Origin: the human T2T-CHM13v2.0 reference genome, Homo sapiens
Length of the DNA: 64,000 nt
Assembly: GCF_009914755.1 (NCBI RefSeq)
Contig: NC_060945.1
Strand: one strand, 5' to 3'
This document shows, one piece after another, positions 1 to 31,567 of this stretch. The notes beneath the pieces are model-generated. The model had not been told where the DNA came from. It saw only the letters and a program-made list of their open reading frames with translations, and made no database searches. Both the position numbers and the translations under genes were made by a program. Each line of letters begins with the position of its first letter. Within the stretch, counting starts at the first letter, position 1.

Positions 1-3000
1 GAATGGAGTGGAACGGAATGGAATGAGTGGAGTGGAGTGGAATGTCGTGGAGTGGAGTAGAATGGAGTGGAGTGGAATGGAATGCAACGGAATGAAGTTG
101 AGTGGAATGGAATGGAGTGGTGTGGAGTAGACTTGAGTGAAACGGAAAGGAATGGAGTAGAATGCAATGGAATGGAAAGGAATAGGTGTTGAGATTGTGC
201 CATTGCTCTACAGCCTGTGTGACAGAGGGAGAACCTGTCGAGCGAAAGGAGTGGAATGGGATGGAGTGGAGTGAAGTGGAGTGTAGTGGAGTGGAATGGA
301 GAGGAACAGAGTGGTGTGGAGGGGAATGAAGTGGAGTGGAGTGGAATGGAGTGCAGTGGAGTGGGGTGGAGTGGAATTGAGTAGAAAGGAATGGAGTGGA
401 GTGTGGTGGAATGGAGTGGAGTGGAGTTTAATGAAATGGATTGGAATGGAATGGAATGGAATGGAGTGGAGTGGAGTGGAGTGGAATGGATTGGAGTCGA
501 GTGGAGTGGAGAGCAGTGGAATGGAGTGGAATGGAATGGAATGGAATGGAATGTAGTGGAATGGAATGGAATGGAATGGAATGTAGTGGAGTGGAATGGA
601 ATGGAATGGAATGTAGTGGAATGGAATGGAATGGAATGGAATGTAGTGCAATGGAATGGAATGGAATGGAATACAATGGAGTGGAGTGGAATGGAATGGT
701 GTGGAGTGGAGCAGAAAGGAATGGAGTGGAACGGAATGAAGTGGAGTGGAGTTGAGTCGAATGGAGTGAAATGGAATGAACTGGAATGAAATGGAGAGGA
801 GTGGAATGGAATGGATAGGCGCGGATTGGAGTAGAGTAGAATAGAATGGGATGGAATGAAATGGAGTGGAGGGGAGTGGAATTTAGTGGAGTGGAGTGGA
901 ATTGAGTGGAGGGTAGTGGAGAGCAGTGGAATGGAATGGAATGGAATGGAATAGAATAGAATAAGTGCAGAGTTTGAGCCACTGCACTGCATCCTGTGTG
1001 ACAGAGGGAGATTCTGGCGAAAGAAAGAATTGGAATGGGAAGGAGTGTTGTGGATTGGAGTTCAGTGGAATGGAGTGGAATGGAGTGGAGTGGAGTGGAG
1101 TGGAATGGAGTGGAATGGAGTGGAATGGAATGGAATGGAATGGAGTGGAGTGGAATGAAACAGAATATAGTGGAATGGAGTGGAGTGGAATGTACTGGAG
1201 TGGAGTGGAATTGACTTGAGTGGAAATGATTGGAATGGAGTGGTGTGGAATGGATTGGAGTGTGGTGGAATAGAGTGGAGCGTAGTGGAGTGTAGTGGAG
1301 TTGAATGGAATGGAACGGAGTGGCGTGGAATTGAATGGAATGGAATGGAGTGGAATTTACTGGAACGGTGTGGAATGGGCTGGAGTTGAATGGAACGGAA
1401 CGGATTTTAAAGGAAAGGAATGGAGTGGAATGGAGTGTAGTGGAGTTGAGTGGAGTTGAATGGAGTGTAGTGGACTGGAGTGCAGTGGAGTCCAGTGTAA
1501 TGGAATGGAAATCTATGGACTGCAGTGGAATGAAATGCAGTGGTTTTGAGTGGAGTGTAGTGGAATAGAATGGAATGGAATGGAAAGGTGGAGTGGAGTG
1601 GAATTCAGTGGAGTGGATTGCAGTGGAATGGAACGGAATGGAATGCAATGTAGTGGAGTTGTTTAGAGTGGAGTGGATTGGAAAGGAATGGAAAGAAATG
1701 GAGTGGAATGGAGTGCAGTAGAGTTGAGAGGAGCGGAATGGATTGGAATGGAATCAGATGTAATGGAATGTGGTGGAGTTGAGTTGAGTGGAGTGGAACG
1801 GAATGGAAAGGAACAAAACATAATGGAACGGAATGGAATGTGTGCTGAGATTGTGCCACTGCGCTACAGCCTGTTTGACAGAGGGAGAGCCTGTTGAAAG
1901 AAAGGAGTGGAATGGGATTGGGTGGAGTGCGGTGGAGTGGAGTGGAGTGGAATGGAGTGGAGTGGAGTGGATTGGAGAGGAGTGGATGGAGTGGAGTGGA
2001 GTGGAATGGAATGGGGATAAGAGGAAAGGAATGTAGTGTAGTGGAATGGAAAGGCCTGAAGTGGAATGGAATGCAATGGAGTGGAATGGAATGGATTGGA
2101 GTGGAATGGAGTGGAGTGGAGTGGAATTGAGTGGAATGCAATGCAGTGGAGTGGAAGGGAATTAAATGGAATGGGGTATAATTGACTGGAATGGAGTGGA
2201 ATGGACTGGAGTGGAATGGATTAGAAAGGAGTGGACTGGAATGCAATGGAGTGGAGTGGAGAGGTGTGGAGAGGAGTGGATTGGAGTGCAATGGAGGGCA
2301 ATGGAGTGGAGTGTAGTCGAGTGGTGTGTAATGGAGTGTAGTAGAGTGGAATGGAATGGAGTGGGGTGGAGTGGAGTTGAGTGGAATGTAATATAATGGA
2401 ATGGAATAGAATAGAATGGAATGGAATGGGTGCTGCGATTGTGCCACTGCACTACAGTGTGACAGACGGAGATCCTGTCGAAAAAAAAGAGTGGAATGTG
2501 ATGGAGTGTAGCGGAGTGCAGTGAAGTGGAATGGAGTTGAGTGGAATGGATTGGAGTGGAGTGTAAAGGACTGGAGTGGAGTGGAATGGACTCGAGTGGA
2601 GTGGAGTGGACTGGAAAGAAATGGAATGGAATGAAATGGAATGGAATGCACTGGAATGGAATGGAATGGTGTGGAATGGAATGGGTGCTGAGATTGTGAC
2701 ACTGCACTGCAGCCTGTGTGACAGAGGGAGACCCTGTCGAATGAAAAGAGTGGAATGCGATGTAGTGGACTGGAGTGGATTGGAGTGGAGTGGAGTAGAA
2801 TGGAGTGGAGTGGAGTGCACTGGAGTTGAGTGGAGTAGAGTGGACTGGAATGGAATGGAATGGAGTGGAGTGTAATTGAATGAAGTGGTGTGGAAGAGAG
2901 TGGAGAGAAATGTAATGGAATGGAATGGAACTGAATGGAGAGGGGTGGAGTGGAGTGCAGTGCAATGTAATGTAATGTAATGGAATGGAATGGAAAGGAG

Positions 3001-6000
3001 TGGAGTGGAATGGAGTGCAATGGAATGGAGTGCAATGGATGAAGTGGAGTGGAGTGCAGTGGAGTGGAATGGAGTGGAATGAACTGGAATGGAATGGAGT
3101 GGAGTGGAATGGAATGGAGAGGTGTGAAGTGGAGTAGAGTGGAATGAAATGGAATGTAATAAAGTAGATTGGTGTGGAGTGGAATTGAGTGGAGTGCAGT
3201 GAAATGGAATGCAATGGAATGGAATGGAGTGGAGTTGAGTGGGGTGGAGTGGAAACGAATGGAGTGGAATGAAGTGCAGTGAAGTGGAGTGGAGCCAAAT
3301 GGAGTGGAATGGAATCCGATGTAATGGAATATAGTGGAGGGGAGTGCAGTGGAGTGGAAAGGAATGGAACGGAACAGAATGGAATGGAACGGAATGAAAT
3401 GTGTGCTGTAATCACGCCACTAAGCTACTGCCTGTGTGATAGAGGGAGATCCTGTCGAGAGAAAGGAGTATAATGGGATTGAGTGGAGTGGAGTGGAGTG
3501 GAATGGAGTGGAGAGGAGTGGAGTGATGTGGAATGGTGGGGAGTGGAGTTTAATGGATTAGAGTTGAGTGGAATGCAATGGAATGGAGAGGAGTGGAATG
3601 GGATGGAGTGGAGTGGAATGGACTGGAGCAGGGTGAAATGGACTGGAGTGGAATTGAATGGAATGGAGTGGAGTGGAATGGAAAGGAATGGAGTAGAATG
3701 GAGTGGAGTGGAGTGGAGTGCAATGGAGTGTGGTGGAATGCAATGGAGTATAGCGGAATAGAATGGAGTGGAGTGGAATTTACTGGAATGGAGTGGAATG
3801 GACTGGAGTCAACTGGAATGGAGTTGAGTGGAGTGGAATGGAGTTGAGTGGAGTGGAATGGAATGGAGTGGAGTGGAGTGGAATGGAATGGAGTGCAGTG
3901 GAGTGGAGTGGAGTGAAATGGAGTGGAGTGGAGTGCAATGGAGTGTGGTGGAATGCAATGGAGTGGAGTGGAATAGAATGGAGTGGAGTGGAATTCACTG
4001 GAATGGAGTGGAATGGACTGGAGTCGACTAGAATGGAGTTGAGTGGAATGGAATGGAGTTGAGTGGAGTGGAATGGAATGGAGTGGAGTGGAGTGGAGTG
4101 GAATGGAATAGAGTGGAGTGGAGTGGAGTGAAATGGAGTTGAATGGAATGGAATGGAATGAAATGGATACTTAGACTGTGCCACTGTGCTACAGCCTATG
4201 TGACAGTAGGGGAACCTGTCAAAAGAAAGGAGTGGAATGGGAAGGAGTGTAGTGGAGTGTTGTGGAGTGGAGTGGAGTGGAATTGGAGATTAATGTAACG
4301 GAGTGGAGTGGAATGGAATGGAATGGAGTGGAGTGGAATGGATTGGAGTGGAGTGGGGTGGAGAGCAGTGCAATGGAGTGGAGTGGAATGGAATGGAATG
4401 GAATGTAGTGGACTGGAATGGAATGGAGTTGCGTGGAGTGGAGTTCAGTGGAATTGAATGGAATGGAATGGAACTGAGTGGAATGGAATGGAATGGAATT
4501 GGTGCTGAGATTGTGCCACTGCTCTACAGCCTGTGTGATAGAGGGAGATTCTGTCGAAAGAAATAATTCTAATGGGAAGAAGTGGAGTGGATTGGAGTTG
4601 AGTGGAATGGAATGGAATTGACTGAAGTGAAATGGAATGGAATGAATGGTAAAGGAATAGAATGGAGTGGAGTGTGGTGGAATGGAATGGAGTGTAGTGA
4701 AGTGCAGTGCAGTTGAGTGGAATGGAATGGAGTGGAGTGAAATGGAGTGGAAAGGAGTTGAGTGCAATTTACTTGAAAGGAGTGGAATGGAATGGAGTGG
4801 AATGGAAACACAAGGAGTTGAATGGCGTGTAGTGGAGTGGAGTGGAGTGGAGTGGAATGGAATAGAGTGGAGTGGAGTGGAGTGAAATGGAGTGGAATGG
4901 AATGGAATGGAATGAAATGGATACTTAGATTTTGCCACTGCACTACAGCCTGTGTGACAGAGGGAGATCCTGTCAAAAGAAAGAATTGTAATAGGAAGGA
5001 GTGGAGTGGATTGGAGTTGAGTGAAATGGAGTGGAATGGAACGGAGTGGAGTGGAGTGGAGTTGAATGGAATGGGGTGGAGTGGAATGGAGTTGAGTGGA
5101 ATGGAGTGGAATGGAATCTGATGGAATGGAATGGAATGGAATGGAATGGAATGGAATGGAATGGATTATGGTGGAGTGGAGTGGATTGGAGTGGACTAGA
5201 ATGGATTGGAGTGCAATGAAATGGGATGGAATGGAATGCCATCGAGTGCAGTGGAGTGGAGTGGACTGGAGTGGCGGAGAGTGGAACGGAGTCGAGTGGA
5301 ATAGAATGGAGTGGAATAGAATGGAATGGAATGCAATGGAATGGAATGCAAAGGAATGGAATGCAATGGAATAGAATGGAATGGAATGGTGAAATGAAAT
5401 GTGAGCCGAATTTGTGCCACAGCAAGCCAGCCTGGGTGACAGAGTGAGATGCTGTTGAAAGAAAGAAATGGAATGGAATGGAGTGGAGTGGAGCGGTGTG
5501 GAGTGGAGTGGTGTGGAGTGGAATGGAATGGGATGGACTGTAATGGAATGGAGTGCAGTGGAGTGGAGTGGCAGAGAGTGGAATGGAGTCACGTGGAATG
5601 GAATGGAATGGAATGGAGTGGAATGGAGTGGAATAGAATGGAAAGGAGTGGAGTGCAGTGGAGTGGAGTGGAGTAAAGTGCAGTGGAGTGGAGTGGAGTG
5701 GAATGGAATGGAATGGATTAGTGAAATGAAATGTAAGCTGAGATTCTGCCACAGTACTCCAGAAAGGGCGACAGAGTGACATCCTGTCGAATGTAAGGAA
5801 AGTAATTGAGTGGATTGGAATGGAATGGAGTGTAGTGGAGTGGATAGGAGTGTAGTGGAGTGGAATGGAGTGGAGAGGAATGGAATGGAAGGGAGTGGAG
5901 AGGAGTGAACGGGAGTGTAGAGGAATGTAATGGGATGGAATCCAATGGAATGAAATGGAGGGGAGTGGAGTGGAGTGTTGGGGAGAGGAATGGAGTGGTA

Positions 6001-9000
6001 TGGAATTGGATGGAATTGAATGTAGTGGAGTGGAGTGGCATGGAGAGGAGTGGAGTAGACTGGAGTGGAATGGCACGAAATTGAATGGAGTGGAGCCGAG
6101 TGGAGTGGAGTGGAGTGCAGTGGAGTGGAATGGAATATAGTGGAATGGAAATGAATGGAATGGAAAGGAATGTAATGGAATAGAGATGAATGATGAAATG
6201 AAATATGAGCTGAGATTGTAACACTGCACTCCAGCCAGTGTGACAGAGTGAAATACTGTCGAAAGAAAGGAATGGAATGGACAGGTGAAGAATGGAATGG
6301 AATGGAATGGAGTGGAGTGGAGTGCATTATATTGGATTGGAGTGGAATGGAAAGGGATGGAATGGGATGGAGTGGAGTGGAGTGGAGTTGAATGGAACGG
6401 TGTTGTATGGAATGGAATGGAATGGAATTGAATGGAATGCAGTGGAGTAGAGTGGAGTGGAATTCGCAGGAGTGGAATGGAAAGGCATGGAATGGAATTG
6501 AATGCGTTGCAATGGAATGGAATGCAATGGAATGGAATGGAATGCAATGGAATGGAATGGTGAAATGAAATGTGAGCTGAGATACTACCACTGCACTCCA
6601 GCCTGGGTGACACAGTGAGATCCTCTCAAAAGAGAGGAGAGGAATGGAATGGAATGGAGTGAAATGTAATGGAATGGAATGGAATGAAATGGAATGGAAT
6701 GGAATGGCATGGAATGGAATGGAGTGGAGTGGAGTGGAATGAAATAGAATGGAGTGGAATGGAATGGGATGGAGTGGAAAGAATGGAGTGGAGGTGAGTG
6801 GAGTGGACGGGAGTGGAGTGGAGAGAAATGGAGTGAAATGGAATGGGATGGAATGGAATGGAGTGGAGTGGATTGGAGTGAAGTGGAGTGGAGTGGAGTG
6901 GAGTTGACTGGAGTGGAGTGGAATGGAGTGGAATGCAATGGAATGGAATGGTATGGAATGGAACGGGGGAGGGGAGTGGAGTGGAGTGGAGTGGAATTGA
7001 GTGTAGTGGCACGGAATGGAATGGAAAGGAAAGGAATACAATGGAATGGTGAAATGAAATGTGAGCTGAGATTGTGCCCCTGTATTCCAGCCTTTTTTGA
7101 CACAGTGATATCCCGTCGAAAGGAGGGAATGGAATGGAATGCGGTGGAATGGAATGTGATGGAATTGAATGAAATGGAATGGAATGGGGTTTAATGGAAT
7201 GGAATGGAATGGAATGGAATGGAATGGAATGGAATGGAGAAATTAAATGTGAGCTAAGATTGTGCCACTGCACTCCAGTCTGGGTGACAGAGTGAGATCC
7301 ATTTCGAAATAATGGAATGGAATGGAATGGAGTAGAGTGGAATGACTGCAGCGGCGTGGAATGGAGTGGAGTGGCGTGGAGTGAAGTTGAGTGGAGTGGA
7401 GTGGAATGGAATTTAGGGGAATGGAATGGAATGGTGAAATGAAATGTGAGCTGGGATTTTGTAATTGCACTCCATTTTGGGTGACAGAGTGAGATCCTGT
7501 CGAAAGAAAATAATGGAATGAAATGGAGTGGAAAAGAATGGAATAGAATGGAGTGGAGTGGAGTGGAGTGGAGTGGAGTGGAATGGAATTTAGGGGAATG
7601 GAATGGAATGGAAGGGTAGGGAAGGGAATGGAATGGAAGGGAAGGGAATGGGGAAATGAAATGTGAGCTGACATTGTGGCACTGCACTCCAGCCTGGGTG
7701 ACAGAGTGAGATCCTGTCGAAAGAAAATATTGGAATGGAATGGAGTGCAATGTAATGGAATAGAGTAAAGTGGAGTGGAAAGGAGTGGGATGGAATGTGA
7801 TGGAATGAAATGGAGTGGAGTGGAGTAGAGTGAAACGGAATGGAGTGGAGTGCAGTGGAGTGGAGTGGAATTCATTGGAACGGAATGGAATGGAATGGAA
7901 AGGAATGTAACAGGTGCTGAGATTGTACTACTGTGCTACAGCCTGTGTGACAGAGGCAGATCCTGTCGAAAGATAGGCGTGGAATGGGTTGGAGCAGAGT
8001 GGAGTGGAGTCGAAGGGAGTGGAGTGGAGTGGACTGGAGTGGAATGGAATGGAGTGGAGTGGAATGGAATGGACTGGAGTGGAGTGGAATGGAATGAAGT
8101 GGAGTGGAATGGACTGGAGTGGAATGGAATGGAAAGAAGTGGAATGGAATGGAGTGGAGTGGAGTGGAATGGAGTGGAATGGAGTGGAGTGGAATGGAGT
8201 GGAGTGGAGTATAGTGGAGTGGAATGGAGTGGAGAGGAGTGCAGTGGAGTGGAATGGAGTGGAGTGGAGTGGTGTGGAGTGGAATGGAGTGGAGTGGAAT
8301 GGAATGGAATGCAATGCAATGCAGTGGAGTGGAGTGGAATGGAGTGGCGTGGAATGTAATGGAGTGGAGTGGAATGGAATGGACTGGAGTGGAGTGGAAT
8401 GGAATGGAGTGGAGTCGAATGGAATGGAGTGGAGTGGAATGGACTGGAGTGGAATGGAATGGAATGGAGTGAACGGAATGGAGTGGAGTGAAGTGGAGTG
8501 GAATGGATTGGAATGGAATGGAATGGAATGGAATTAAGTGGAGTGGAGCAGAGTGGAGTGGAAAGGAATGGAATGGAGTGGAATGGAGTGCAGTGAAGTG
8601 GAGAGAAGTGCAATGTAGTGAAATGGAATCGGATGTAATGGAATGTAGTACTGTGGAATGGAGTGAAGTGGAGCGAAATGGAATGGAACGGGACAGAACG
8701 GAATGGAACGGAACGGAATGGGTGCTGAGATTGTGCCACTGCACTACAGCCTGTGTGAAAGAGATACTTTAGAAAGAAAGGAGTGGAATGGGATAGAGGG
8801 GAGTGGAGTTTAGTGGAGGGGAATGGAGTGGAGTGGAATGGAGTGGAATGGAGTGGAGTGGAGTGAAATGGAGTGGAGTGGAGTGAAATGGAGTGAAGTG
8901 GAGTGGAATGGAGTGGAGTGGAATGGAGTGGAGTGGAGTGGAATTCAGTGGAATGGAGTGGAGTAGAATGGAATGCAATGGGATGGAATGGAATGGAATG

Positions 9001-12000
9001 GAATGGAGTCGTCTGGATTGGTGTGGAGTGGAGTGAAGTGGATTGAAGTGGAATGGAGCGGAATGGAATGGGATGGAATGGAATGGAATGAAGTGGAGTG
9101 GAGTGGGGCGGAGTGGAGTGCAGTGGAATGGAGCGGAATGGAATGGGACGGAGTGGAGAGGAGTGGAGCGCAGTAGAGTGAATAGGAGTGGAATGGAGTG
9201 GAATGGAAACGAATGTAATGGAATGTAGTGGAGTGGAGTGGAACGGAGTGGGATGGAATTGAATTGAATGGAATGGAATGGAATGGAATGGAATGCACTG
9301 GAATGCAATGGAATAGAATGCAATGAAATGGAAAGTTGACATGCAATGTGAGCTGAGATTGTGCCACTGTACTCCAGCCTCAGTGACACAATGATACCCT
9401 GTCAAAAGAAAGGAATGGAATGCAATGGAGTGAAATGGAATGTAATGGAGTGGAGTGGAGTGGAGTGGATTCGAGTGGAATGGAGTCGAATGGAATGGGA
9501 TGGAGTGGAATGGAGTGGAGTGGAGTGGAGTGGAGTGGAGTGAAATAGAGTGGAATGGAGTGGGATAGAATGGAATACAGTGGAATGGTGAAAAGAAATG
9601 TGAGCTGAGATTGTGCCACTGCACTCCAGTCTTTGTGACAGAGTGAGATCTTGTGGAAAAAAAGGAATAGAATGGAATAAAGAGGAATGGAATGGAAGGG
9701 AATGGAATGGAATGGAAGGGAGTGGATTGGAGTCGAGTGGAATGGAGTGGAATGGAATGTGATGGAATGGAATGGCAAGGATTATGGTGGAGTGGAGTGG
9801 ATTGGAGTGGAGTAGAGTGGAATGGAGTGGAATGAAATGGGATGGAATGGAATGCCATCGAGTGCAGTGGAGTGGAGAGGACTGGAGTGGCGGAGAGTGG
9901 AATGGAGTCGAGTGGAATAGAATGGAGTGGAATAGAATGGAATGGAATGCAATGGAATGGAATGCAAAGGAATGGAATGCAATGGAATAGAATGGAATAG
10001 AATGGAATAGAATGGTGAAATGAAATGTGAGCTGAATTTGTGCCACTGCACGCCAGCCTGGGTGACAGAGTGAGATGCTGTCGATAAAAGAAATGGAATG
10101 GAATGGAGTGGAGTGGAGCGGTGTGGAGTGGAGTGGTGTGGAGTGGAATGGAATGGGATGGACTGTAATGGAATGGAATGCAGTGGAGTGGCAGAGAGTG
10201 GAATGGAGTCGAGTGGAATGGAATGGAATGGAATGGAATGGAATGGAGTGGAATGGAGTGGAATGGAATGGAAATGAGTGGAGTAGAGTGGATTGCAGTG
10301 GAGTGGAGTGGAGTGTAATGGAATGGAATGGAATGGATTAGCGAAATGAAATGTAAGCTGAGATTCTGCCACTGTACTCCAGAATGGGTGACAGAGTGAC
10401 ATCCTGCCGAATTTAAGGAATGGAATGGAGTGGAGTGGAATGGAATGGAATGTAGTGGAGTGGATAGGAGTGGAATGGAGTGGAGAGGAATGGAATGGAA
10501 GGGAGTGGAGAGGAGTGGATGGGAGTGGAGTGGAATGGAATGGAATGGGATGAAATCCAATGGAATGAAATGGAGGGGAGTGGAGTGTTGGGGTGGAGTG
10601 GAATGGTATGGAATTGGATGGAATAGAATATAGTGGAGTGGAGTGGGATGGGGAGGAGTGGAGTAGAGTGGAGTGGAATGGAACGAAATTGAATGGAGTG
10701 GAGATGAGTGGAGTGGAGTGGAGTGGAGTGCAGTGGAGTGGAATGGAATATAGTGGAATGGAAATGAATGGAATGGAAAGGAATGTAACGGAATAGAATA
10801 GAATGATGAAATGAAATATGAACTGAGATTGTAACACTGCACTCCAGCTAGTGTGACAGAGTGAAATATTGTCGAAAGAAAGGAATGGAATGGACAGGTG
10901 TAGAATGGAATGGAATGGAGTGGAGTGGAGTGGATTATAGTGGAATGGAGTGGAATGGAATGGGATGGAATGTGATGGAATGGGATGGAGTGGAGTGGAA
11001 TGGAACGGTATGGTATGGTATGGAATGGAACGGAATGGAATGGAATGGAATGGAATGGAATGGAATGGAATGGAATGCAGTGGAGTGGAGTGGAGTGGAG
11101 TGGAGTTCGCAGGAGTTGAATGGAATGGGACGGAATGGAATTGAATGCATTGCAATGGAATGGAATGGAATGGAATGCAATGGAATGGAATGGAATGCAA
11201 TGGAATGGAATGGAATGGAATGCAATGGAATGGAATGGAATGGAATGGAATGGAATGGAATGGAATGGAATGGAATGGAATGGTGAAATGAAATGTGATC
11301 TGAGATACTGCCACTGCACTCCAGCCTGGGTGACAGAGTGAGATCCTCTCGAAAGAGAGGAATGGAATGGAATGGAGTGAAATGGAATGGAATGGAATGA
11401 AATGGAATGGAGTGGAGTGCAGTGGAGTGGAATGGAATAGAAAGGAGTGGAATGGAATGGGATGGAGTGGAAGTAATGGAGTGGAGGTGAGTAGAGTGGA
11501 GTGGATGGGAGTGGAGTGGAGAGAAATGGAGTGAAATGGAATGGGATGGAATGGAATGGAGTGGAGTGGATTGGAGTGAAGTGGAGTGGAGTGGAGTTGA
11601 TTGGAGTGGAGTGGAATGGAGTGGAATGCAATGGAATGGAATGGTATGGAATGGAATGGGGGAGGGGAAGGGAGTGGAGTGGAGTGGAATTGAGTGTAGT
11701 GGCACGGAATGGAATGGAAAGGAAAGGAATACAATGGAATGGTGAAATGAAATGTGAGCTGAGATTGTGCCCCTGTATTCCAGCCTTTTTTGAAACAGTG
11801 ATATCCCGTCGAAAGGAGGGATTGGAATGGAATGGGGTGGAATGGAATGGAATGCAATGGAATGGGGTTTCATGGAATGGAATGGAATGGAATGGAATGG
11901 AATGGAATGGAATGGAGACATTAAATGTGATCTAAGTTTGTGCCACTGCACTCCAGTCTGGGTTACAGAGTGAGATCCATTTCGAAATAAAGGAATGGAA

Positions 12001-15000: not shown

Positions 15001-18000
15001 TGCACTCCAGACTGGGTGACAGAGTGACATCCTGTCGAATGTAAGGAATGGAAGGGAAAGAAGTGGAATGGAATGGAATGGAATGGAATGTAGTGGAGTG
15101 GAGTGGAGTGGAATGAAATGGACTGGAAAGAAATTGAATGGAATGGAGTGTAGGGGAGTTGAAAGGAGCAGAGTGGAATGGAATGGAAGGGGATGGAAAA
15201 GAATGGAATGAAATTGATGGGAGTAGAGTGGAATGGTGGGGAGAGGAGTGGAGTGGTATGGAATTGAATGGAGTGGAGTGGAGAGGAGTGGAGTAGAGTG
15301 GACTGGAATGGAAAGGAATGGGGTCGAGTGGAGTGGAGTGGAGTGCAGTAGAGTGGAATGGAAGGTAGTGGAATGGAATTGAATGGAATGGAAAGGAATG
15401 GAATGGAATAGAATGGAATGATGAAATGGAATATGAGTTGAGATTGTACCACTGCACTCCAGCGTGGGTGACAGAGTGAAATCCTGTTGAAAGAAAGGAA
15501 TGGAATGGGAAGGAGTGGAATGGAATGGAAGGGAATGGAATGGAGTGCAGTGGAGTGGAGTGGAGTGGAGTGGAGTGCAGTATAGTGGAATGCAATGGGA
15601 TGGAATGGAATGGAGTGGAGTGGAGTGGATTGGAGTGAAGCAGAGTGGAATGGAATGGAATGGAATGGAATGGAATGGAATGGAATGGAATAGAATGGAA
15701 TGGAATGGAATGGATTGGAATAGAATGGAATGGAAAGCAGTGGCATGGAGTGGAATGGAGTGAAGTGGAGTGGAGTGGAATTGAATGGAGTGTAGCGGAG
15801 TGGAGTGGAGTGGAATTGAATGGAGTGGAAAGGAATGGAATGGAGTGTAGCGGAGTGGAGAGGAGTGAAGTGGAATGGAATGGAGTGGGATGGAATCTAT
15901 TGGAATGAAGTGGAGTTTAGTGGAGAGGAGTGGTGGGAAGTGTAGTGGAGTAGAATGAAATTGGATGGAATTGAATGGATTGGAGTGGAGTGACGTGGAG
16001 AGGAGTGGAGAAGAGTGGAGTGGAATGGCATGCAATGAAATGGAATAGAGTGCAGTGGAGTGGAGTGGAGTGGAATGGAATGTAGTGGAAATGGATTGAA
16101 CGGAATGGAAAGGAATGGAATAGAATAGAATGGAATGGTGAAATGAAATATCAGCTGAGATTGTTCCACTGCACTCCAACATGTGTGACAGAGTGAAATC
16201 CTGTTGAAAGAAAGGAATGGAATGGAAAGGAGTGGAATGAATGAAACGGAATTGAGTGGAGTGGAGAGAAGTGGAGTACATTGGAGTACATTGGAATGAA
16301 ATGGGATAGAATGGAATGGAGTGAAGTGAAGTGGAGTGGAGTGGAGTGGAATGGAATGGAATGGAATGCAGAGGAGTGGAGTTCACTGGAGTGGAATGGA
16401 ACACGATGGAATGGTATTGAATGGAATGGAATGGAATGCAATGGAGTGCAATGGAATGCAATGGAATGGGATGCAATGGAATGGAATCGAATGGTGAAAT
16501 TAAATGTAAGCTGAGATAGTGCCACTACATCCAGGTCTGGGTGACAGAGATCCTGTCGAAAGAAAGGAATGGAATGGAATGGAGTGAAAAGGAATGGAAT
16601 GGAATGGAGTGGAATGGAATGGAATGGAGTGGAGTGTAGTGGAGTGGAATGGAGTGGAATCGAATGGGATGGAGTGGAATGGAATGGAATGGAGTGGAGT
16701 GGAGAAGAATGGAGTGAAAAGAAATGGGATGGAATGGAATGGAGTGGAGTGGAGTGGAATGGAGTGTAGTGGTGTGGAGTGGAGTTGATTAGAGTGTAGT
16801 GGAATGGACTGGAGTGGAGTGCAGTGGAATGGAGTGGAGTGGAATGGAAGGGAATGGAATGCAATGTAATGGTGAAATGAAATGTGAGATGAGATTGTGC
16901 AATTGTATTCCAGCCTTTTTTGACACAGTGAGATCCCATCAAAAGAAAGGGATGGCATAAAGTGGAGTAGAATAGAATGGAGTGGAATGGATTGGAGTGG
17001 GCTGGATTGGAGTGGAGTGCAGTGCAGTCGAGTGGAAAGGAGTGGAATGGAATGGGATGCAATGGAATGACATGGAGTGGAGTGGAGTGGAGTGAATTGG
17101 AGTGGAGTAGAGAGGAATGGAGTGGAATTAAATGGGATGGAAAGGAATGGCATGGAGTTGAGTGGAATGGAGTGTAGTGGATTGGAGTGTAGTGGAGTGG
17201 ATTGGAGTGTAGTAGAGTGGAATGGAATGGAATGGAATGGAATGCAATGGAATGGAATGGAATGGTAAAATGAAATGTGAGCTGAGTTTGTGCCACTTAA
17301 CGCCAGCCTGGGTGACAGAGACAGATCCTGTCAAAAGAAAGGAATGGAATGGGGTGGAGTGTAGTGTAGTGGTTTGGAGTTCAATGGAGTGCAATGGAAT
17401 GGGATGGAATGGAATGGAATGGAGTGCGGTGGAGTGGAGTGGAGTGGAGTGGAGTGGAGTGGCATGGAGTGGAATGGAATGCGATGGAATGGAATAAAGT
17501 AGAGTGGAGTTGAATGGAGTGGACTGGAGTGGAATGTAGTGGAATGGAATGGAATGAAGTGGAGTGGAGTGCAGTGGAGAGGGGTGAAGTGGAATGGAAT
17601 GGAATGGAATGGAATGGAATGGAATGGAATAGAATGGTGAAATGAAATCTGAGCTGAGATTATGCCTCTGCACTCCATCCTGGGTGACAGAGTGAGATCC
17701 TGTCGAAAGAAAGCAATGGAATGGATTGGAGTGGAATGCAATGGAATGGAATGGAACGGAAAGGAATGGAATGGAATGGAAAGGAGGGAATGGAATAGAA
17801 TGGAGTGGGGTGGAGTGGAATGGAGTTGAATGGAATGGGATGTAATGAAATGGAGTGTAATGGACTGGACTGGAGTGGAATGGAGTTGAGTAGAGTGGAA
17901 GGGACTGGAATGGAATGGGATGGAATGGAATGGAATGGAGTGGAGTGGAGTGGGGTGGAAAGGAATGGGATGGAGTTGAGTGGAGTGGAGTGAAATGGAG

Positions 18001-21000
18001 TAGAATGGAAAGGAATGGAGTGGAGTGGAGTTGAATGGAATGGAATGGAATGAAATTGAATGCAATAATGAAATGAAACGTGAGGTGTTATTGTGCTACC
18101 GCACTCCAGCCTTGGTGACAGAGTGAGATCTTCTTGAAAGAAAGGAATTGAATGGAATGGAGTGGAATGGAATGGAATGGAATGCAGTGGATGGAGTGGA
18201 GTGGAATAGAGTGGAACGGAATGTGATGGAGTGGAATGGAATGGAGTGGAGTGGAGTGGAATTGAGTGGAATGGAAAGGGATGGAATGGAATGGAATGGG
18301 GAGGAGTGGAGTGGAAGGGAGTTGAGTGGAGTGGGGAGGAATGGAATGGAATGGAATGGAGTGGAGTAGAGTGGCGTGGAGTGGAGTGGAGTAGAGTGGA
18401 GTATAGTGGAGTGGAGTGGAGTATAGTGGAGTGGAATGAAGTATAGTGGAATGGAGTGGAATGGAATGGAATGGAATTAAGTGGAGTGGAGTGCAGTGGA
18501 ATGGAATGGAATGGAATGGAAAGGAATTGAAAGGAATGGAATGCAGTGGAGTGGAGTGGAGTTCACAGAAGTGGAATAGAATTGAATGGAATGCAATGGA
18601 ATGGAATGCAATGCAATGGAAAGGAATGGAATGCAATGGAATGAAATGGAATGGAATGCAATGGAATGCAAAGGAATGGATGGTGAAATTTAATGTGAGC
18701 TGAGATAGTGCCACTGCACTCCAGCCAGGGTGACACAGTGAGAGTCTGTCGACAGAAAGGAATGGAATGGAAAGCAGTGAAACGAATGGAATGGAATAGA
18801 ATGGAGTGGAGGGGAGGGGAGTGGAGTGGAGTGTACTGGAGTGAAATGGAGTCGAATGGAATGGGATGGAGTGAAATGGAATGGAGTGGAGTGGACTAGA
18901 GTGAAATAGAGTGGAAAGGAATTGGATGGAATGGAATGCAATGGAATAGTGAAAAGAAATTTGAGCTGAGATTGTGCCACTGCACTCCAGCCTTTGTGAA
19001 AGAGTGAGATCCTGTGGAAAGAAAGGAATGTGATGGAATGGAGTGGAATTGTATGGAATGGAATGGAGTGAAGTGGAGTGGAGTGGAGTCGAGTGCAATG
19101 GAGTGGAATGGAATGGGATGGAAAGGAATGGCATGGAGTGGAGTAGAGAGGAGTGGATTGGAGTGGAGTAGATTAGCATGGAGTGGAATGGAATGGGATG
19201 GAATTGAATGCCATGGAATGAGGTGGAGTGGAGTGGACTGGATGGAGTGGACTGGATTGGAGTGGAGTAGAGTGTAATGGAGTGGAGTGGAATGGAATGG
19301 AAAGGAATGGAATGCAGTGGAAAGCAATGGAATGGAATGCTATGGAATAGATTGGAATGGAGTGGTGAAATGAAATGTGAGCTGAATTTGTGCCAATGCC
19401 CGCCAGTCTGGTTGACAGCGTTACATGCTGTCAAAAGAAAGGAATGGAATGGAATGAATTGGAGTGGAGCTGAGTGGAGTGGAGTGGTGTGGAGTGGAAT
19501 GGAGTGGAATGGAATGGGATGGAGTGGAATGGAATGGAGTGTATTAAGTGGAGTGGCATGGAGTGAAATGCAGTGGAATGGAATGCGATGGAATGGGATG
19601 GAATGGAATGGAGTGGAGTGGAGTGGAATAGAGTGGAATAGAGTGGAATGGAGTGGAATGTAATGGAATGGAATGGAGTGGATTGGAGTGCAGTGAAGTG
19701 GAGTGGAATGGAATGGAATGGAATAGTGAAATGAAATGTAAGGTGGGATTCTGCCACTGCACTCCAGACTGGGTGACAGAGTGACATCCTGTCGAATGTG
19801 AGGAATGGAGCGGAATGGAGTGGAATGGAATGTAGTGGAGTGGAGTGGAATGGAACGGAGTGGAAAGGAATGGAACGGAATGGAGTGGAACGGAGTGGAG
19901 AGGAGTGGAGTCGAATGGAATGGAATGGGATGGAATCGAATGGAATGAAGTGGAGGGGAGTGGAGTGGAGTGTTGTGGAGAGGAGTGGAGTGGTATGGAA
20001 TTGGATGGAACTGAATGGAGTTCAGTGGAGTTGGGTGGAGAGGAATGGAGTACACTGGAGTGGAATTGAATGGAATGGAATGGAGTGGAGTTGAGTGAAG
20101 TGGAGTGGAGTGGAGTGGAATGCAATGTAGTAGAATGGAATTGAATGGAATGGAAAAGAATGGAATGGAATAGAATGGAATGATGAAATGAAATATGAGC
20201 TGAGATTGTGCCACTGCACTCCAGCAGGGTGACAGAGTGAAATCCTGTTGAAAGAAAGGAATGGAATGGAAAGGACTGGAATGCAATGGAATGGAATAGA
20301 GTGGAGTGGAGTATACTGGAAGGGAGTGGAATGGAATGGGATGGAATGGAATGGAGAGGAATACACTGGAGTGTAGTGGAGTGGAATGGAATGGAATGGA
20401 ATGGAATGGAATGGAATGGAATGGAATGCAGTGGAGTTTAGTTCACAAGAGCGGAATGGAATGGGATGGAATGGAATGGAATGCAATGGAATGGAATAAA
20501 ATGGAATGCAATGGAAGGGAATTGTGAAATTAAATGTTAGCTGAGATAGTGCCACTGCACTCCAGCCTGTGTGACAGAGTGAGATCCTGTCGAAAGAAAT
20601 TAATGGAATGTAAAGGTGTGAAGTATGATGGAATGGAAGGAAATGGAATGGAGTGGAGTGTAGTGTAGTGGAATGGAGCGTAATGGAGTGGAATGGAATG
20701 GGATGGAGTGGAATGGAATGGAGTGGAATGGAGTGGATTGAATTGGAGTAGAGTGGAGTTGACTGGATTGAAGTGGAATGGAGTGGAGTGGAATGGAATG
20801 GAATGGAATGGAATGGAATGGAATGGAATGGAGGGGAGTGGAGGGAGGTGGAGGGGAATGGAGTGGAGTGGAATGGAATGGTGAAATAAAATGTGAGCTG
20901 AGATTGTGCCACTGTGTTCCAGCCTTTTTTGACATAGTGAGATCCCATCAAAAGAAAGGACTGGAATGGAATGGGGTGGAATGGAATGGAGAAGAATGGA

Positions 21001-24000
21001 ACGGAGTGGAGTGGATTGGAGTGGAGTGCATTGGAGTGGAGTGGAGTCAAGTGAAATGGAGTGAAATGGAATGGAAGGAAATGGAATGGCATGTAGTGGA
21101 GTGGGGTGGAGTGAATTTGAGTAGAGTAGGGTGGAATGGAATGGAATGGAGTGGAATGGAATGGGATGGAAGGGAATGGCATGGAGTGGAGTGGAATGGA
21201 GTGGATTAGAGTGGAGTAGAGTGGAATGGAAAGGAACGGAATTAAATGGAATGGAATGGAATGGTATGGAATGGAATGGAATGCAATGGAATTGAATGGA
21301 ATGCAATAGAATGGAATGGAATGCAATGGAATGGAATGGAATGGAATGGAATGCAATGGAATGGAATGGAATGGAATGGAATGGAATGGAATGGAATGGA
21401 ATGGAATGGTGAAATGAAATGTGAGCTCAGTTTGTGCCACTGCACGCCAGCCTGGGTGACAGAATGAGATCCTGTCGAAAGAAACGAATGGAATGGAATG
21501 GAGTGGAGTGTAGAGGTGTGGAGTGATGTGGAGTGGAATGGAGTGGAATGGAATGGGATGGATTTGAATGGAAGGAGTGTAGTGGAGTGGATTGGAGTGG
21601 AGTGGAGTGGAATGGAATGGAATGGAGTGGAATGGAATGGAATTGAATGGAATGGAATGGAATGGAATGGAATGTTGTGGAGTGTATTGGAATGGAGTGG
21701 AATGGAGTGAAATGGAGTGTAATGTAATGTAGTGGAATGGAGTGGAGTGGAGTGCAGTGGAGAAGGGTGTAGGGGAATGGAATGGAATAGTGAAATGAAA
21801 TGTGAGCTGAGATACTCCCACTGCACTCCAGACTGTGTGACAGAATGAGATCCTGTCGAATGGAATTGAATAGAGTGGAATGAAATGGAGTGCAGTGGAG
21901 TGGAGCAGAGTGGAGTGGAGTGGAGTGGAATGGAATGGAATGGGATGGAATCAAATGGTATGAAGTGGAGGGGAATGGAGTTGAGTGGAGGGACGAGGAG
22001 TGGAATGGAATGGAATTGGATGGAATGGGATGGAGTGGAGTGGAGTGGGGTGGAGAGTAGTGGAGTAGAGTGGAATGGAATGGAATGCAATGGAATGGAG
22101 TGGAGTGGAGTAGAGTGGATTGGAGTGTAATGGAATAGAATGGAATGGATAGGAATGGAATGGTATAGAATGGAATGATGAAATGAAATATGAGCTGAGA
22201 TTGTGCCACTGCACTCCAGCCTGGGTGACAGAGTGAGATCCTGTCAAAGGAAAGGAATGGAATGGAAAGGAGTGGAACGGAATGGAATGGAATGGATTGA
22301 TTGGAGTGCAGTGGAGTAGAGGTGAGTGGAGTTCACAGTAGTGCAATGGAATGGAATGGAGTGGAGTCGAGTGCAGTGGAGTGGGTTGGAATGGAATGGA
22401 GTGGAATGGAATGGGATGGAATGGAATGGAGTGGAGTGGAGTGGAGTTCACAGGAGTGCAATGGAATGGGATGGAATGGAATTGAATGGAATGGAATGGA
22501 ATACAATGGAGTGGAATGCAATGGAATGCAATCGAATGGAATTGTGAAATTAAATGTGAGCTGAGATAGTGCCACTGCACTCCAGCCTGTGTGACAGAGT
22601 GAGATCCTGTTGAAAGAAATTAGTGGAATGTAAGAGAATAAATTATACTGGAATGGAATGGATTGGAGTGGAGTGGAGAGGAATGGAGCTTAATGGAGTG
22701 GAAGGGAATGGGAAGGAGTGGAATGGACTGGAGTGGAGTGGAGTGGAGTGGAGTGGAGTGGAGTGGAGAGAAATGAGGTAAAATGCAATGGGATGGACTG
22801 GAATGGAGTGGAGTGGAGTGGAGTGAATTGGAATGGAGTGGATTTGACTGGATTGCAGTGGAATGAAGTGGAGTGGAATGGAATGGAATGGAATGGAATG
22901 GAATGGAGGGGAGTGGAGTGGAGTTGAGGGGAATGGAGTGGAGTGGAATGGAGTGGAATGGAATGGAATGGAATGGTGAAATAAAATGTGAGCTGAGATT
23001 GTGCCACTGTGTTCCAGCCTTTTTTTGACACAGTGAGAGCCCGTCAAAGGAAAGGAATGGAATGGAATATGGTGGAATGGAATGGAGTGGAGTGGATTGG
23101 AGTGGAGTGGAGTGGAGTCAAGTGGAACAGAGTGGAATGGAATAGGATGGAATCGAATGGCATGTAGTGGAGTGGGATGGAGTGAATTTCAGTGGATTAG
23201 GGTGGAATGGAGTGGAATGGAATGGGATGGAAGGGAATGGCATGGAGTGTAGTGGAGTGGACTGGAGTGGGTTAGAATGGAATTGAATGGAATGGTATGG
23301 AATGGAATGGAATGGAATGGAATGGAATGGAATGGAATGGTGAAATTGAATGTGAGCTGAGATAGTGCCACTCCACTCCAGCCTGGGTGACAGATTGAGA
23401 TCCTGTCAAAAGAAAGGAATGGAATTGAATGGAGGGGAATGGAATGGGATGGAGTGGGGTGGAGTGGAGTGGAGTGGAGGGGACTGGATTTGAGTGGAGT
23501 CTAGTGGAACAGAGTGGAATGGAATGGGGTGGAGTGGAACGGAATGGAATGGAGAGGAGTGGTGTGGAGTGGAGTGGATTGGAATTCAATGGGATGGAAT
23601 GGTATGGAGTGGAGTGGAATGGAGTGGAGTGGAATGGAATGGAATGGAATGGAATGGAATTGGAATGGAATGGAATGGAATGGAGAGGAGAGGAATGGAG
23701 TGGAATGTAGTGTAATTGGAAAGGATGGAATGGAATGGAATGCCATGGAATAGAATTAGGAATAGAATGGAATGATGTGGAATGGAATGGAGTAGAATTC
23801 AGTGGAGTGGAGTGGAGTGGAATGTAATGTAATGGAATGGGATGGGATGGAGTGGAATGGAATGGAGTGGAGTGGAGTGGAGTGGAGTGGAGTGGAGTGG
23901 AATGGAGTGGAATGCAATGGGATGTGATGGAATGGAGTGGGGTGGAGTTGAGTGGATTGAAATCGAATGGAATGGAGTGGAGAGGAGTGTAGTGGAATGG

Positions 24001-24550
24001 AATGGAATGGAATGGAATAGAAGGGAATAGAATGGTGAAATGAAATGTGAGCTGAGATTGTGCCACTGCACTCCATCCTGGGTGACAAGTGAGATTCTAT
24101 CGAAAGAAAGGAATGGAACGGATTAGAGTGGAATGGAATGGAGTGGGGTAGAGTGGAGTGGAGTGTAGTGGAGTAGAGTGGAATAAAGAGGAATGGAATG
24201 GGATGTAATGGAAAGGAATGCAGTGGAGTGGAGTAAAGTGGAGTGGAGCGGAGTGGAGTGGTGTGGAGTGGAGAGGAGTGGAATGGAATGGAATGGAATG
24301 GAATGGAATGGAATGGAATGGCACGGTGAAATGAAATGTGGGCTGAGATTGTGCCACTTCACTACAGCCTGGGTGACGGAGTGAGTTCCTGAAGAAATAA
24401 AATAATGTAATAGAATGGATTGGAATGAAATGGAATGGAGTGTAGTGGACTGGAGTAGAGTGGAATGGAGTGGAGTAGAGTGGAAGGGAATGGAATGAAA
24501 TGAGATGGAATGGAATGGAATGGAATAGAATGGAGTGGAGTGGAGTGCAA
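1..24550 (+). repeat. Diverged classical satellite 3 (HSat3-like) array, (GGAAT)n/(GGAGT)n, G-rich strand on +; runs off the left edge of the window
   Basis: Continuous 5-bp periodicity of GGAAT and GGAGT with variants (GCAAT, GTAGT, GGATT, GGACT); + strand is almost C-free; ends at ...GGAGTGGAGTGCAA at 24550. Confidence 0.97.
185..24392 (+). repeat. About 60 interspersed, co-oriented copies of a ~57-bp Alu right-arm 3' terminal fragment embedded in the satellite
   Basis: Approximate starts: 185, 965, 1841, 2430, 2685, 3401, 4171, 4501, 4921, 5401, 5733, 6205, 6572, 7061, 7249, 7446, 7663, 7913, 8721, 9348, 9600, 10027, 10353, 10818, 11295, 11754, 11927, 12129, 12331, 12605, 12765, 13054, 13244, 13615, 13947, 14208, 14610, 14981, 15433, 16150, 16506, 16884, 17277, 17649, 18080, 18695, 18961, 19377, 19738, 20195, 20536, 20893, 21421, 21802, 22190, 22556, 22988, 23352, 24047, 24338. 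They match the Alu 3' end GTGAGCCGAGATCGCGCCACTGCACTCCAGCCTGGGCGACAGAGCGAGAC(C/T)C(T/C)GTC; compare the AluY at 63966-64000. Confidence 0.95.
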
Positions 24551-24889
24551 AAATCCTCAATAAAATACTAGCAAGGCGAATCCAGCAGCAAATCAAAAAG
24601 CTTATCCACCATGATCAAATGTGTTTCATCCCTGGGATGCAAGGCTGGTACAACATACGCAAATCAGTAAACGTAATCCATCATATAAACAGAACCAACG
24701 TCAAAAACCACGATTATCTCAATAGATGCAGAAAAGCCCTTTGACAAAATTCAACAACCTTCATGCTAAAAACTCTCAATAAATTAGATATTGATGGGAC
24801 GTATCTCAAAATATTAAGAGCTATTTATGACAAACCCGCAGCCAATATCATACTGAATGGGCAAAACCTGAAAGCATTCCCTTTGAAAA
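24546..24889 (+). mobile_element. Internal L1PA ORF2 (RT-region) fragment, lacking 5' part, 3'UTR and poly(A)
   Basis: TGCAAAAATCCTCAATAAAATACT...GCATTCCCTTTGAAAA, translating as [24 protein letters not shown] and [34 protein letters not shown]; homologous to ~45055-45400 of the full-length L1 in this window but with different diagnostic bases. Confidence 0.95.
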
Positions 24890-25140
24890 TCTCAGTTACC
24901 TTTCTTTTGGATATGTGTGTGAGGAAAGAGTACCTACAAACTACCCTTTTAGTTAAATGCCATATACAATAAATATTAATACCTACAGTCCTCATGTTGT
25001 ACATTAGAGCCCTCAATTTGTTAATTCTACATATCTGCAACTTTGCATCCTTCGAATTCTCTATCTCCATTTTCTCTTCTCACCCCCAGCCCCTGGTAAC
25101 CACTGTTTTATACTCTATCTCTGCATATTTACCTTTTTGC
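24890..25140 (-). mobile_element. Old L1MA-type 3'UTR fragment
   Basis: ACAGTCCTCATGTTGTACATTAGA...CCCCAGCCCCTGGTAACCACTGTTTTATACTCTATCTCTG resembles an antisense L1MA 3' end. Confidence 0.7.

Positions 25141-31269: not shown

Positions 31270-31567
<298 letters not shown>

What the first reader, a model, noticed from the sequence alone, without database searches (positions are those of the whole stretch)
185..24392. Composite Alu-fragment/HSat3 satellite: the true monomer is one Alu 3' end plus a variable pentamer tract, repeated about 60 times
Seen: about 60 copies of the same ~57-bp Alu right-arm terminus, all in one orientation. They share the same 5' breakpoint (usually after GTGAAATGAAAT) and 3' junction (CTGTC-GAAAGAAAGG), and are separated by ~115-750 bp of GGAAT/GGAGT. 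None has TSDs, a poly(A) or Pol III A/B boxes. Established: independent Alu retrotransposition gives random 5' truncation, A-tails and TSDs. Inference: one Alu remnant was captured once and then co-amplified with the satellite by DNA-level recombination, giving a conserved-spacer plus elastic-pentamer architecture. Repeat maskers would probably fragment it into simple repeat plus tiny Alus. The known Alu-containing satellite HSat1B/DYZ2 is AT-rich and different. I cannot tell whether this array is already catalogued as an HSat3 subfamily.
Basis: partly seen in the sequence, partly recalled or inferred. Interest (0 to 1): 0.8.

Follow-up and report, generated by a model that had tools for sequence, protein, structure and literature searches.

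The report
Alu-tagged HSat3 satellite on chr21p
A stretch of human satellite 3 on the short arm of chromosome 21 is built from units that each carry the same short tail-end piece of one Alu element plus a stretchable run of GGAAT-type pentamers; it is real, but it belongs to a genome-wide family that the complete-genome papers have already noted.

Summary
There are 60 same-strand copies of a ~56-nt Alu 3' end plus a short A-rich tail at window 189-24407, with one shared 5' breakpoint and one shared 3' junction, set in GGAAT/GGAGT pentamers. The single-capture, DNA-level amplification reading holds, and it extends genome-wide. The two junction 41-mers have 1441 and 1160 matches in CHM13+Y, against 0 for reversed controls. 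In 20 sampled 10-kb loci on 11 other chromosomes, 409 of 440 fragments start at the same Alu position, always sense on the GGAAT strand.

Four corrections:
- The 3' boundary is the natural Alu end with an A-rich remnant, so "no poly(A)" is not right, and target-site duplications (TSDs) cannot be tested.
- The Alu piece is stable in length, not conserved in sequence. Against the chr3 paralog, substitutions are 0.76% in the Alu piece and 0.77% in the pentamers, while indels are 0.25 versus 3.5 per kb, and 63 of 71 pentamer indels are multiples of 5.
- Above the unit lies an irregular ~4.65-kb higher-order duplication.
- The array is the edge of a larger HSat3 block, inside a segmental duplication.

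Not novel in kind: Altemose et al. and Rhie et al. report Alu fragments in HSat3 units. Low interest.

The parts
1..24549 (+). HSat3-type pentamer satellite (GGAAT/GGAGT on the + strand). It continues upstream of the window and ends at 24549 against non-satellite sequence.
   Evidence: TRF gives period 5 over 244-24321 with 4736 copies. GC skew is +0.71 to +0.81 up to 24 kb and falls to ~0 afterwards. The sequence at the boundary was read. Upstream loci L009 and L010 are also pentamer-rich.
189..24407 (+). 60 copies of the Alu 3'-end fragment (~56 nt of Alu plus a ~9-nt A-rich tail). nhmmer starts: 189, 967, 1844, 2432, 2687, 3405, 4170, 4504, 4924, 5405, 5737, 6209, 6576, 7065, 7253, 7450, 7667, 7916, 8724, 9352, 9604, 10031, 10357, 10823, 11300, 11758, 11932, 12133, 12336, 12608, 12769, 13057, 13248, 13619, 13951, 14212, 14615, 14985, 15438, 16154, 16510, 16890, 17281, 17653, 18089, 18699, 18965, 19381, 19744, 20199, 20540, 20897, 21425, 21806, 22194, 22560, 22992, 23356, 24051, 24342.
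   Evidence: nhmmer, alignment, and mapping onto the Alu profile at positions 216-223 to 267-286.
188..5404 (+). Domain of nine 'type A' units. Their core reads ..GTGCTGAGATT..CTACAGCCTGTGTGACAGAGGGAGA.. and units are mostly long (255-877 bp). Type A copies also occur at 7916, 8724, 12607 and 13056.
   Evidence: Alignment. In the tree the 13 type A rows fall on one side of a branch, SH-aLRT 72. The type A 48-mer has 107 genome matches at <=3 mismatches.
5405..7915 (+). Eight-unit 'type B' block, first copy of the clearest higher-order duplication.
   Evidence: It is 94.7% identical to 10031-12606 over 2411 aligned bases, and 22 of 29 gaps are multiples of 5. Out-of-register controls give 80-84%. 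Unit-by-unit best matches lie at lags of 4613-4723.
10031..12606 (+). Second copy of the eight-unit block, at a lag of ~4.65 kb.
14614..16153 (+). Older echo of the first three units of the block (14614, 14985, 15437).
   Evidence: Core-plus-flank identity to the units at 5405/5737/6209 and 10031/10357/10822 is 0.85-0.89. The k-mer lag histogram peaks at 9200-9400.
19381..20539 (+). A further echo of the same three units (19381, 19742, 20199).
   Evidence: 0.86-0.91. The lag histogram peaks at 13950-14000.
20199..24050 (+). Terminal ~2.0-2.1-kb duplication: 20199-22193 against 22194-24050.
   Evidence: 88.2% identity against an 80-84% baseline. Unit best matches lie at lags of 1995, 2020 and 2095.
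24550..24918 (.). Start of the non-satellite flank that abuts the array. It is not part of the repeat.
   Evidence: Sequence read. It looks like an L1 ORF2 piece from recall only; this was not tested.

Best explanation
This is a stretch of human satellite 3 of the A type, which lacks the CAACCCGA motif. Its basic repeat unit is a composite. It consists of the last ~56 nt of one Alu right arm, a ~9-nt A-rich remnant of that Alu's tail, and a run of GGAAT/GGAGT pentamers of variable length. Units measure 162-877 bp, median 372.

Inferred history:
1. One Alu landed in, or next to, a pentamer array. It was either 5'-truncated at insertion or cut down afterwards.
2. That single remnant with its flanks was multiplied as DNA, by unequal exchange or replication slippage. 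It diverged into two unit types (A and B).
3. Multi-unit blocks of ~2.5 kb at a ~4.65-kb lag, and of ~2 kb, were then duplicated.
4. The whole array with its non-satellite flank was copied between chromosomes as a segmental duplication.

The pentamer tracts keep changing length in 5-bp steps, while the non-repetitive Alu piece cannot slip and so stays fixed in length. Nothing points to a sequence-specific function. The Alu piece behaves as a passenger, and as a useful lineage tag. Shown: anatomy, shared junctions, genome-wide spread and indel behaviour. Inferred: the order of events and the recombination mechanism.
For: - 60 of 60 window copies share strand and boundaries. 59 of 60 map to Alu profile positions 216-223 through 267-286.
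- Genome-wide, the 5' junction 41-mer has 1441 matches and the 3' junction 41-mer 1160, at <=3 mismatches. Reversed-pattern controls give 0. Listed places lie on chr3, 4, 9, 10, 13, 14, 15, 16, 17, 20, 21, 22 and Y.
- In 20 loci of 10 kb on 11 other chromosomes there are 440 fragments, and 409 start at profile positions 216-218. Each locus has one orientation, and Alu sense lies on the GGAAT strand in 20 of 20. The consensus of 435 of these equals the window's type B consensus.
- No copy with a longer Alu part was seen.
- Elasticity: unit length is 2 mod 5 in 24 of 59 units. Against the chr3 paralog, the spacers have 71 gap events in 20112 aligned bases, 63 of them multiples of 5, while the Alu pieces have 1 gap in 3960 bases.
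- Higher order: the k-mer lag histogram peaks at 4600-4700, and one block pair is 94.7% identical against 80-84% for controls.
- Segmental duplication: chr3:95.518-95.555 Mb is collinear with the window. Mismatches are 0.76-0.77% in the satellite and 0.46% in 10.9 kb of flank.
- Tree: the satellite fragments fall on one side of a branch against 6 ordinary Alus.
Against: - The tree support for satellite-fragment monophyly is only SH-aLRT 31 on 58 columns, so the case rests on the junctions, not on phylogeny.
- The 20 other loci were picked from junction-pattern hits. They cannot reveal HSat3 arrays that carry Alu pieces with other breakpoints, and an unbiased sample could not be fetched.
- In-register identity of the older ~4.65-kb echoes (84-87%) is only slightly above the out-of-register baseline of 80-84%. 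The 'higher-order repeat' is therefore irregular and partly eroded.
- The mechanism (unequal exchange versus slippage versus gene conversion) is inferred, not observed.
- Rhie et al. [quoted passage not shown]
Confidence: 0.9

Rival explanations
1. The copies are independent Alu retrotranspositions into the satellite, for example at a preferred endonuclease site in the pentamers.
For: The 5' flank GAAATGAAAT is A-rich, as L1 endonuclease targets are (recalled rule), and an A-rich stretch follows the Alu end.
Against: All 60 window copies, and 409 of 440 copies elsewhere, share the same truncation point, the same junction sequences, the same strand and the same substitutions. Independent insertions would differ in truncation point, tail length and orientation. 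The six ordinary Alus in the flank do differ in these ways.
Confidence: 0.01
2. The pentamer tracts of this HSat3 lineage grew out of the Alu's own A-rich tail, as pentanucleotide expansions at Alu tails do. On this view the Alu seeded the satellite rather than being captured by it.
For: The tail remnant GAAAGAAAGG runs straight into GGAATGGAATGG in the consensus. [quoted passage not shown]
Against: Pentamers also lie directly 5' of every fragment. 17.3 kb of the same satellite immediately upstream has no Alu piece at all. HSat3 as a whole is far larger than the Alu-tagged part. Capture by a pre-existing array explains all of this more simply.
Confidence: 0.04
3. The Alu piece is kept by selection as a functional punctuation mark, for example a protein-binding or nucleosome-phasing site, or a motif in satellite III RNA.
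For: It is retained in well over a thousand units on many chromosomes, and its orientation relative to the G-rich strand is invariant.
Against: Against the chr3 paralog, its substitution rate equals that of the neighbouring pentamers (0.76% vs 0.77%) and exceeds that of the non-satellite flank (0.46%). Copies are only ~82% identical to their own consensus. Invariant orientation and retention follow automatically from tandem amplification.
Confidence: 0.04
4. The pattern is an assembly artefact in a hard-to-assemble acrocentric short arm.
For: None from the calls. It is only the general difficulty of such regions.
Against: Collinear paralogs with the same unit order exist on chr3. Matches of 98-100% to a 551-bp probe exist on chr13, 14, 15 and 22. 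Copies differ by point changes and 5-bp indels, as real paralogs do.
Confidence: 0.01

Closest known systems
Human satellite 3 (HSat3, classical satellite III), A-type subfamilies of Altemose et al. 2014 (PMC4022460) as annotated in T2T-CHM13
   Same: Diverged GGAAT/CATTC pentamer arrays on acrocentric short arms and pericentromeres. The CAACCCGA 10-mer is absent. Units are irregular and higher-order structure is nested. Altemose et al. [quoted passage not shown]
   Different: Nothing in kind. The exact subfamily could not be assigned. Of the 14 published marker 24-mers, only the HSat3A4 marker comes close: 0 exact hits and 2 one-mismatch hits in the window, with exact hits in the chr17, chr16 and chr10 Alu-tagged loci.
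HSat3-associated AluY fragments described in the T2T-Y paper (Rhie et al., 10.1101/2022.12.01.518724)
   Same: [quoted passage not shown] Here the same junctions are found on Y (10.89-10.91 Mb, 11.0 Mb, 62.07 Mb) and on the acrocentrics.
   Different: In the passages read, that paper gives no unit anatomy or breakpoints, and it reports no local homogenization. Here a fixed breakpoint, an A-tail remnant, two unit types and local block duplications are shown. The AluY label cannot be checked on 56 nt with the tools at hand.
HSat1B / DYZ2
   Same: A satellite whose repeat unit contains one 5'-truncated Alu, amplified as DNA. It occurs on Y and the acrocentrics.
   Different: HSat1B is a ~2.4-2.5-kb unit with a much longer Alu part and an extremely AT-rich segment. 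Here the units are ~160-880 bp, GC is 45-48%, the repeat is pentameric, and only the last ~56 nt of Alu is present.
WaluSat (Hoyt et al., 10.1101/2021.07.12.451456)
   Same: An Alu-associated satellite that spread by segmental duplication to the acrocentric short arms and expanded there (passage read).
   Different: In WaluSat a 64-nt unit lies beside one AluSx3 and only the 64-mer is amplified. Here the Alu piece is inside every repeat unit.
Alpha-satellite monomer / higher-order-repeat organisation
   Same: A basic unit plus multi-unit blocks that are more alike at a fixed lag than neighbouring units are.
   Different: Units here vary several-fold in length. The higher-order pattern is irregular and mostly eroded, with only one block pair at 94.7%.

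Membership tests
HSat3 (human satellite 3) | Long tandem array of diverged GGAAT/CATTC pentamers | tested here: met
   TRF gives period 5, 4736 copies, 67% matches over 244-24321. There are ~90-120 GGAAT or GGAGT words per kb in the upstream chr21 loci L009/L010 and ~76-120 per kb across the satellite part of the collinear chr3 paralog.
HSat3 A-type versus B-type | B-type arrays carry the CAACCCGA(A/G)T 10-mer and A-type arrays lack it (rule recalled; the B1 marker in PMC4022460 contains it) | tested here: met
   There are 0 occurrences on either strand in the window and in all 25 related loci. This fits the A type.
HSat3A4 subfamily (pTRS-47-like, acrocentric) | Subfamily-specific 24-mers of Altemose 2014 | tested here: inconclusive
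   Only the single most common marker per subfamily was available, from the table in PMC4022460. The A4 marker has 0 exact and 2 one-mismatch hits in the window. It has exact hits in the Alu-tagged loci on chr17 (2+2), chr16 (1) and chr10 (2). The full 24-mer library and the chm13_hsat track were not on hand.
Ordinary Alu retrotransposon insertion | Dimeric ~280-nt element with left-arm Pol III boxes, a poly(A) tail and flanking TSDs | tested here: not met
   Only profile positions ~217-274 plus a ~9-nt A-rich remnant are present. TSDs cannot be tested in pentamer flanks. The six ordinary Alus in the flank show the full pattern.
HSat1B / DYZ2 | A ~2.4-2.5-kb unit made of an Alu part, a >85% AT segment and a GC-richer segment | tested here: not met
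   GC is 0.45-0.48 throughout and units are 162-877 bp. No AT-rich segment was seen in the sequence.
'Composite repeat' in the sense of Hoyt et al. | [quoted passage not shown] | tested here: not met
   The unit has two components, one Alu fragment and a pentamer tract. Whether it is among their 19 composites could not be checked, because bioRxiv supplements are closed.

The most novel reading that the evidence does not exclude
All Alu-tagged HSat3 in the human genome descends from one founder unit. By extrapolation this is some 3,000-4,000 units, over 1 Mb, on at least 13 chromosomes including Y. If so, the 56-nt Alu remnant dates this HSat3 lineage to after the Alu insertion. It also works as a built-in barcode for reconstructing the order in which HSat3 spread among acrocentric short arms, pericentromeres of former acrocentrics, and the Y. 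The passages read do not state this single-founder claim with its exact breakpoints. It can be tested directly in the ape T2T genomes.
Probability: 0.6. Interest if true: 0.35.

Novelty: already known. Interest (0 to 1): 0.2.

Why it matters
The feature has three practical uses.
- **Annotation.** Period-5 callers and maskers hide the real unit, so an Alu-tag profile would segment these arrays cleanly.
- **Evolution.** A single-capture tag with fixed junctions gives a marker for tracing exchange among acrocentric short arms, chr3, 4, 9, 10, 16, 17, 20 and Y.
- **Mutation.** Paralogous copies give a clean internal contrast. Substitution rates are equal, but the indel rate is 14-fold higher, in 5-bp steps, in pentamers compared with the embedded unique piece.

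None of this changes current understanding of satellite biology.

Tried and rejected
- **Tree test of monophyly.** Satellite fragments fall on one side of a branch against 6 ordinary Alus, but with SH-aLRT 31 on 58 columns. This is too short to carry weight, so I rely on the junctions.
- **Subfamily naming by the 14 published 24-mers.** No exact hit in the window, so inconclusive.
- **'Type A units sit in GGAGT-rich spacers'.** I suspected this. One search shows GGAGT fractions of 0.41-0.62 in type A units, overlapping 0.0-0.67 in type B, so I dropped it.
- **Search for a longer progenitor Alu.** The one 'longer' hit (L024) is a spurious extension into pentamers. The full Alu in L032 lies in non-satellite flank.
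- **A clean ~4.65-kb higher-order repeat.** Only one block pair stands clearly above the out-of-register baseline. The rest is eroded.
- **blastn of the blocks without a complexity filter.** It timed out and was replaced by global alignment.
- **Papers not held.** Bandyopadhyay 2001 (no id held), Jarmuz 2007, Choo 1990 and 1992, the Science version of Altemose 2022, and the Altemose 2022 review (one search found only citing papers). The claim that the exact unit anatomy is not in print therefore cannot be made.
- **Ape genomes.** Not available in any tool.
Full report
**What is there.**
The first 24.5 kb of the window (CHM13 chr21:2,108,001 onward) is a G-rich pentamer satellite. GC skew is +0.71 to +0.81 and drops to about zero after 24 kb. 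TRF reports a single period-5 array over 244-24321. An iterated nhmmer search seeded with one copy finds 60 copies of a ~68-nt element at 189-24407, all on the + strand, with E-values from 3.5e-14 to 4.7e-24. Six further hits lie in the non-satellite part, and these are ordinary Alus with A-tails. The alignment of the 60 copies with flanks shows common boundaries on both sides. GTGAAATGAAAT precedes 48 of 60 copies, and CTGTCGAAAGAAAGG closes 37 of 60, both at <=2 mismatches. Start-to-start spacing is 162-877 bp with median 372.

Two coordinate details differ from the finding:
- The array ends at 24549, not 24392.
- It continues upstream of the window, with five more copies in 2.7 kb and then 17.3 kb of pentamers without any Alu piece.

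**Which part of Alu.**
I built a 290-position profile from the six ordinary Alus of the same window. It hits 59 of the 60 satellite copies. The hits start at positions 216-223 (position 217 in 35 of 59; one at 209) and end at 267-286. So the element is the last ~56 nt of the right arm, from GTGAGC to CTGTC, followed by GAAAGAAAG(G). The profile aligns that last stretch to its A-tail. TSDs cannot be assessed because both flanks are the same pentamer repeat. I only note that the 5' flank GAAATGAAAT and the 3' GAAAGAAAGG resemble each other. The left-arm Pol III boxes are absent because the left arm is absent. The Alu subfamily cannot be told from 56 nt with the tools at hand. Rhie et al. call such pieces AluY.

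**One capture, genome-wide.**
The 5' junction 41-mer has 1441 matches in CHM13+Y and the 3' junction 41-mer has 1160, at <=3 mismatches. Reversed-pattern controls give 0. Listed places lie on chr3, 4, 9, 10, 13, 14, 15, 16, 17, 20, 21, 22 and Y. I fetched 20 loci of 10 kb from 11 other chromosomes, chosen from those hits. They hold 440 fragments.
- 409 of the 440 fragments start at profile positions 216-218.
- Every locus has a single orientation.
- In 20 of 20 loci the Alu sense strand is the GGAAT strand.
- The consensus of 435 of these fragments with flanks equals the window's commoner ('type B') consensus.
- No copy with a longer Alu part exists among them.

The strict patterns recover 203 of 435 copies (5' pattern) and 183 of 435 (3' pattern) in the sampled loci. 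In the window they recover 20 of 60 and 21 of 60. The true number is therefore probably 3,000-4,000. This is a rough extrapolation from loci that were not chosen at random. A tree of the 56-58-nt pieces puts all 60 on one side of a branch against six ordinary Alus, but with support of only 31. The junctions, not the tree, carry the argument. Independent retrotransposition is excluded.

**Structure above the unit.**
Two unit types exist.
- Type A has 13 copies: the first nine, plus 7916, 8724, 12607 and 13056. They fall on one side of a branch with support 72. The type A 48-mer has 107 genome matches.
- Type B has 47 copies.

A k-mer lag histogram peaks at 4600-4700, with echoes at 9200-9400 and about 13950. 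Units 5405-7915 match units 10031-12606 one for one. The two blocks are 94.7% identical over 2411 bases, and 22 of 29 gaps are multiples of 5. Out-of-register controls give 80-84%. Older echoes of the first three units lie at 14614 and 19381. A ~2-kb duplication closes the array and is 88.2% identical. The other in-register comparisons (84-87%) are barely above baseline.

**Elastic pentamers, rigid Alu piece.**
Unit length is 2 mod 5 in 24 of 59 units and within one base of that in 23 more. The collinear paralog on chr3 (95.518-95.555 Mb) gives a direct measure:

| Region | Aligned bases | Mismatches | Gap events | Gaps that are multiples of 5 |
|---|---|---|---|---|
| 66-nt windows over the Alu pieces | 3960 | 0.76% | 1 | 0 |
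| Pentamer spacers | 20112 | 0.77% | 71 | 63 |
| Non-satellite flank | 10927 | 0.46% | 6 | 1 |

The Alu piece is therefore not conserved in sequence. It simply cannot slip. The chr3 copy also has about 1.67 kb extra at window position 18000, and it holds 69 fragments against 65 on chr21.

**Mechanism.**
- Shown: a single founder junction pair, amplification as DNA in one orientation, 5-bp-step length change, block duplication, and inter-chromosomal copying together with unique flank.
- Inferred: an Alu inserted into, or beside, a pre-existing pentamer array. It was either 5'-truncated at insertion or cut down later. Unequal exchange and slippage did the rest. Spread followed the known exchange among acrocentric short arms and pericentromeric duplications.

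I see no evidence of function. The substitution rate in the Alu piece equals that of its neighbours.

**What is known.**
- Altemose et al. [quoted passage not shown] They cite Bandyopadhyay et al. 2001, which I could not read.
- Rhie et al. [quoted passage not shown] They add that the Y and acrocentric fragments cluster together.
- Hallast et al. (10.1101/2022.12.01.518658, passage read) point to published consensus sequences for the HSat subfamilies.
- Hoyt et al. (10.1101/2021.07.12.451456, passages read) define composites as units of three or more repeats, and describe WaluSat, which is different.
- Altemose et al. 2014 (PMC4022460, passages read) list the marker 24-mers. None occurs exactly in the window, and the A4 marker is the nearest.
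- My searches for a paper giving this unit's exact anatomy found none.

**Verdict.**
This is a real and neatly organised feature. It is a member of a genome-wide, already reported class of Alu-tagged HSat3, so interest is low.

Noticed in passing
window 1-35483 versus G000:C3:95517877-95555000 (L011-L014): The satellite and at least 10.9 kb of its non-satellite flank are a recent segmental duplication shared with the chr3 pericentromere. Mismatches are 0.46-0.77%. A 551-bp probe also matches chr14, chr22, chr15 and chr13 at 98-99%, chr13:10.6 Mb at 96% and chr4:49.5 Mb at 93%.
   Followed up: partly
window ~18000 / chr3:95535922-95537594: The chr3 paralog carries about 1.67 kb that the chr21 copy lacks at this point, roughly four units (69 versus 65 Alu pieces). 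This is a unit-number change since the duplication.
   Followed up: no
L009 1-7308 and L010 (chr21:2088001-2105308): The 17.3 kb of HSat3 immediately upstream has no Alu piece, so the Alu-tagged part is the ~27-kb edge of a larger pentamer block. On chr3, chr15 and chr22 type A copies continue further upstream than on chr21, which suggests a rearrangement or duplication boundary near chr21:2,105,300.
   Followed up: no
window 189-24407, the Alu pieces: At the positions where I recall CpGs in the Alu consensus, the type B unit consensus reads TG on the G-rich strand every time, never CA. The + strand of the satellite is only 5.3% C, and CpG is at 192 observed against 539 expected. This may reflect strand-asymmetric decay or chance. 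The CpG positions are recalled, not taken from a call.
   Followed up: no
window 24550-24918: The array abuts sequence that looks like an internal L1 ORF2 fragment. This is from recall only and no tool was run on it. There is no transition zone of degenerate pentamers.
   Followed up: no
G000:C9:76675001-76695000 (L025, L026): Alu-tagged units (45 in 20 kb) also lie at chr9:76.675-76.695 Mb. From recall only, this may be near the distal end of the large chr9 HSat3 block. Whether the main block carries them could not be sampled.
   Followed up: no
window 31271-31562, 37161-37432, 37631-37924, 49190-49495, 56193-56369, 63753-63999: Six ordinary Alus lie in the non-satellite part, in both orientations, with different truncations and A-tails. 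They served as the internal reference profile.
   Followed up: yes
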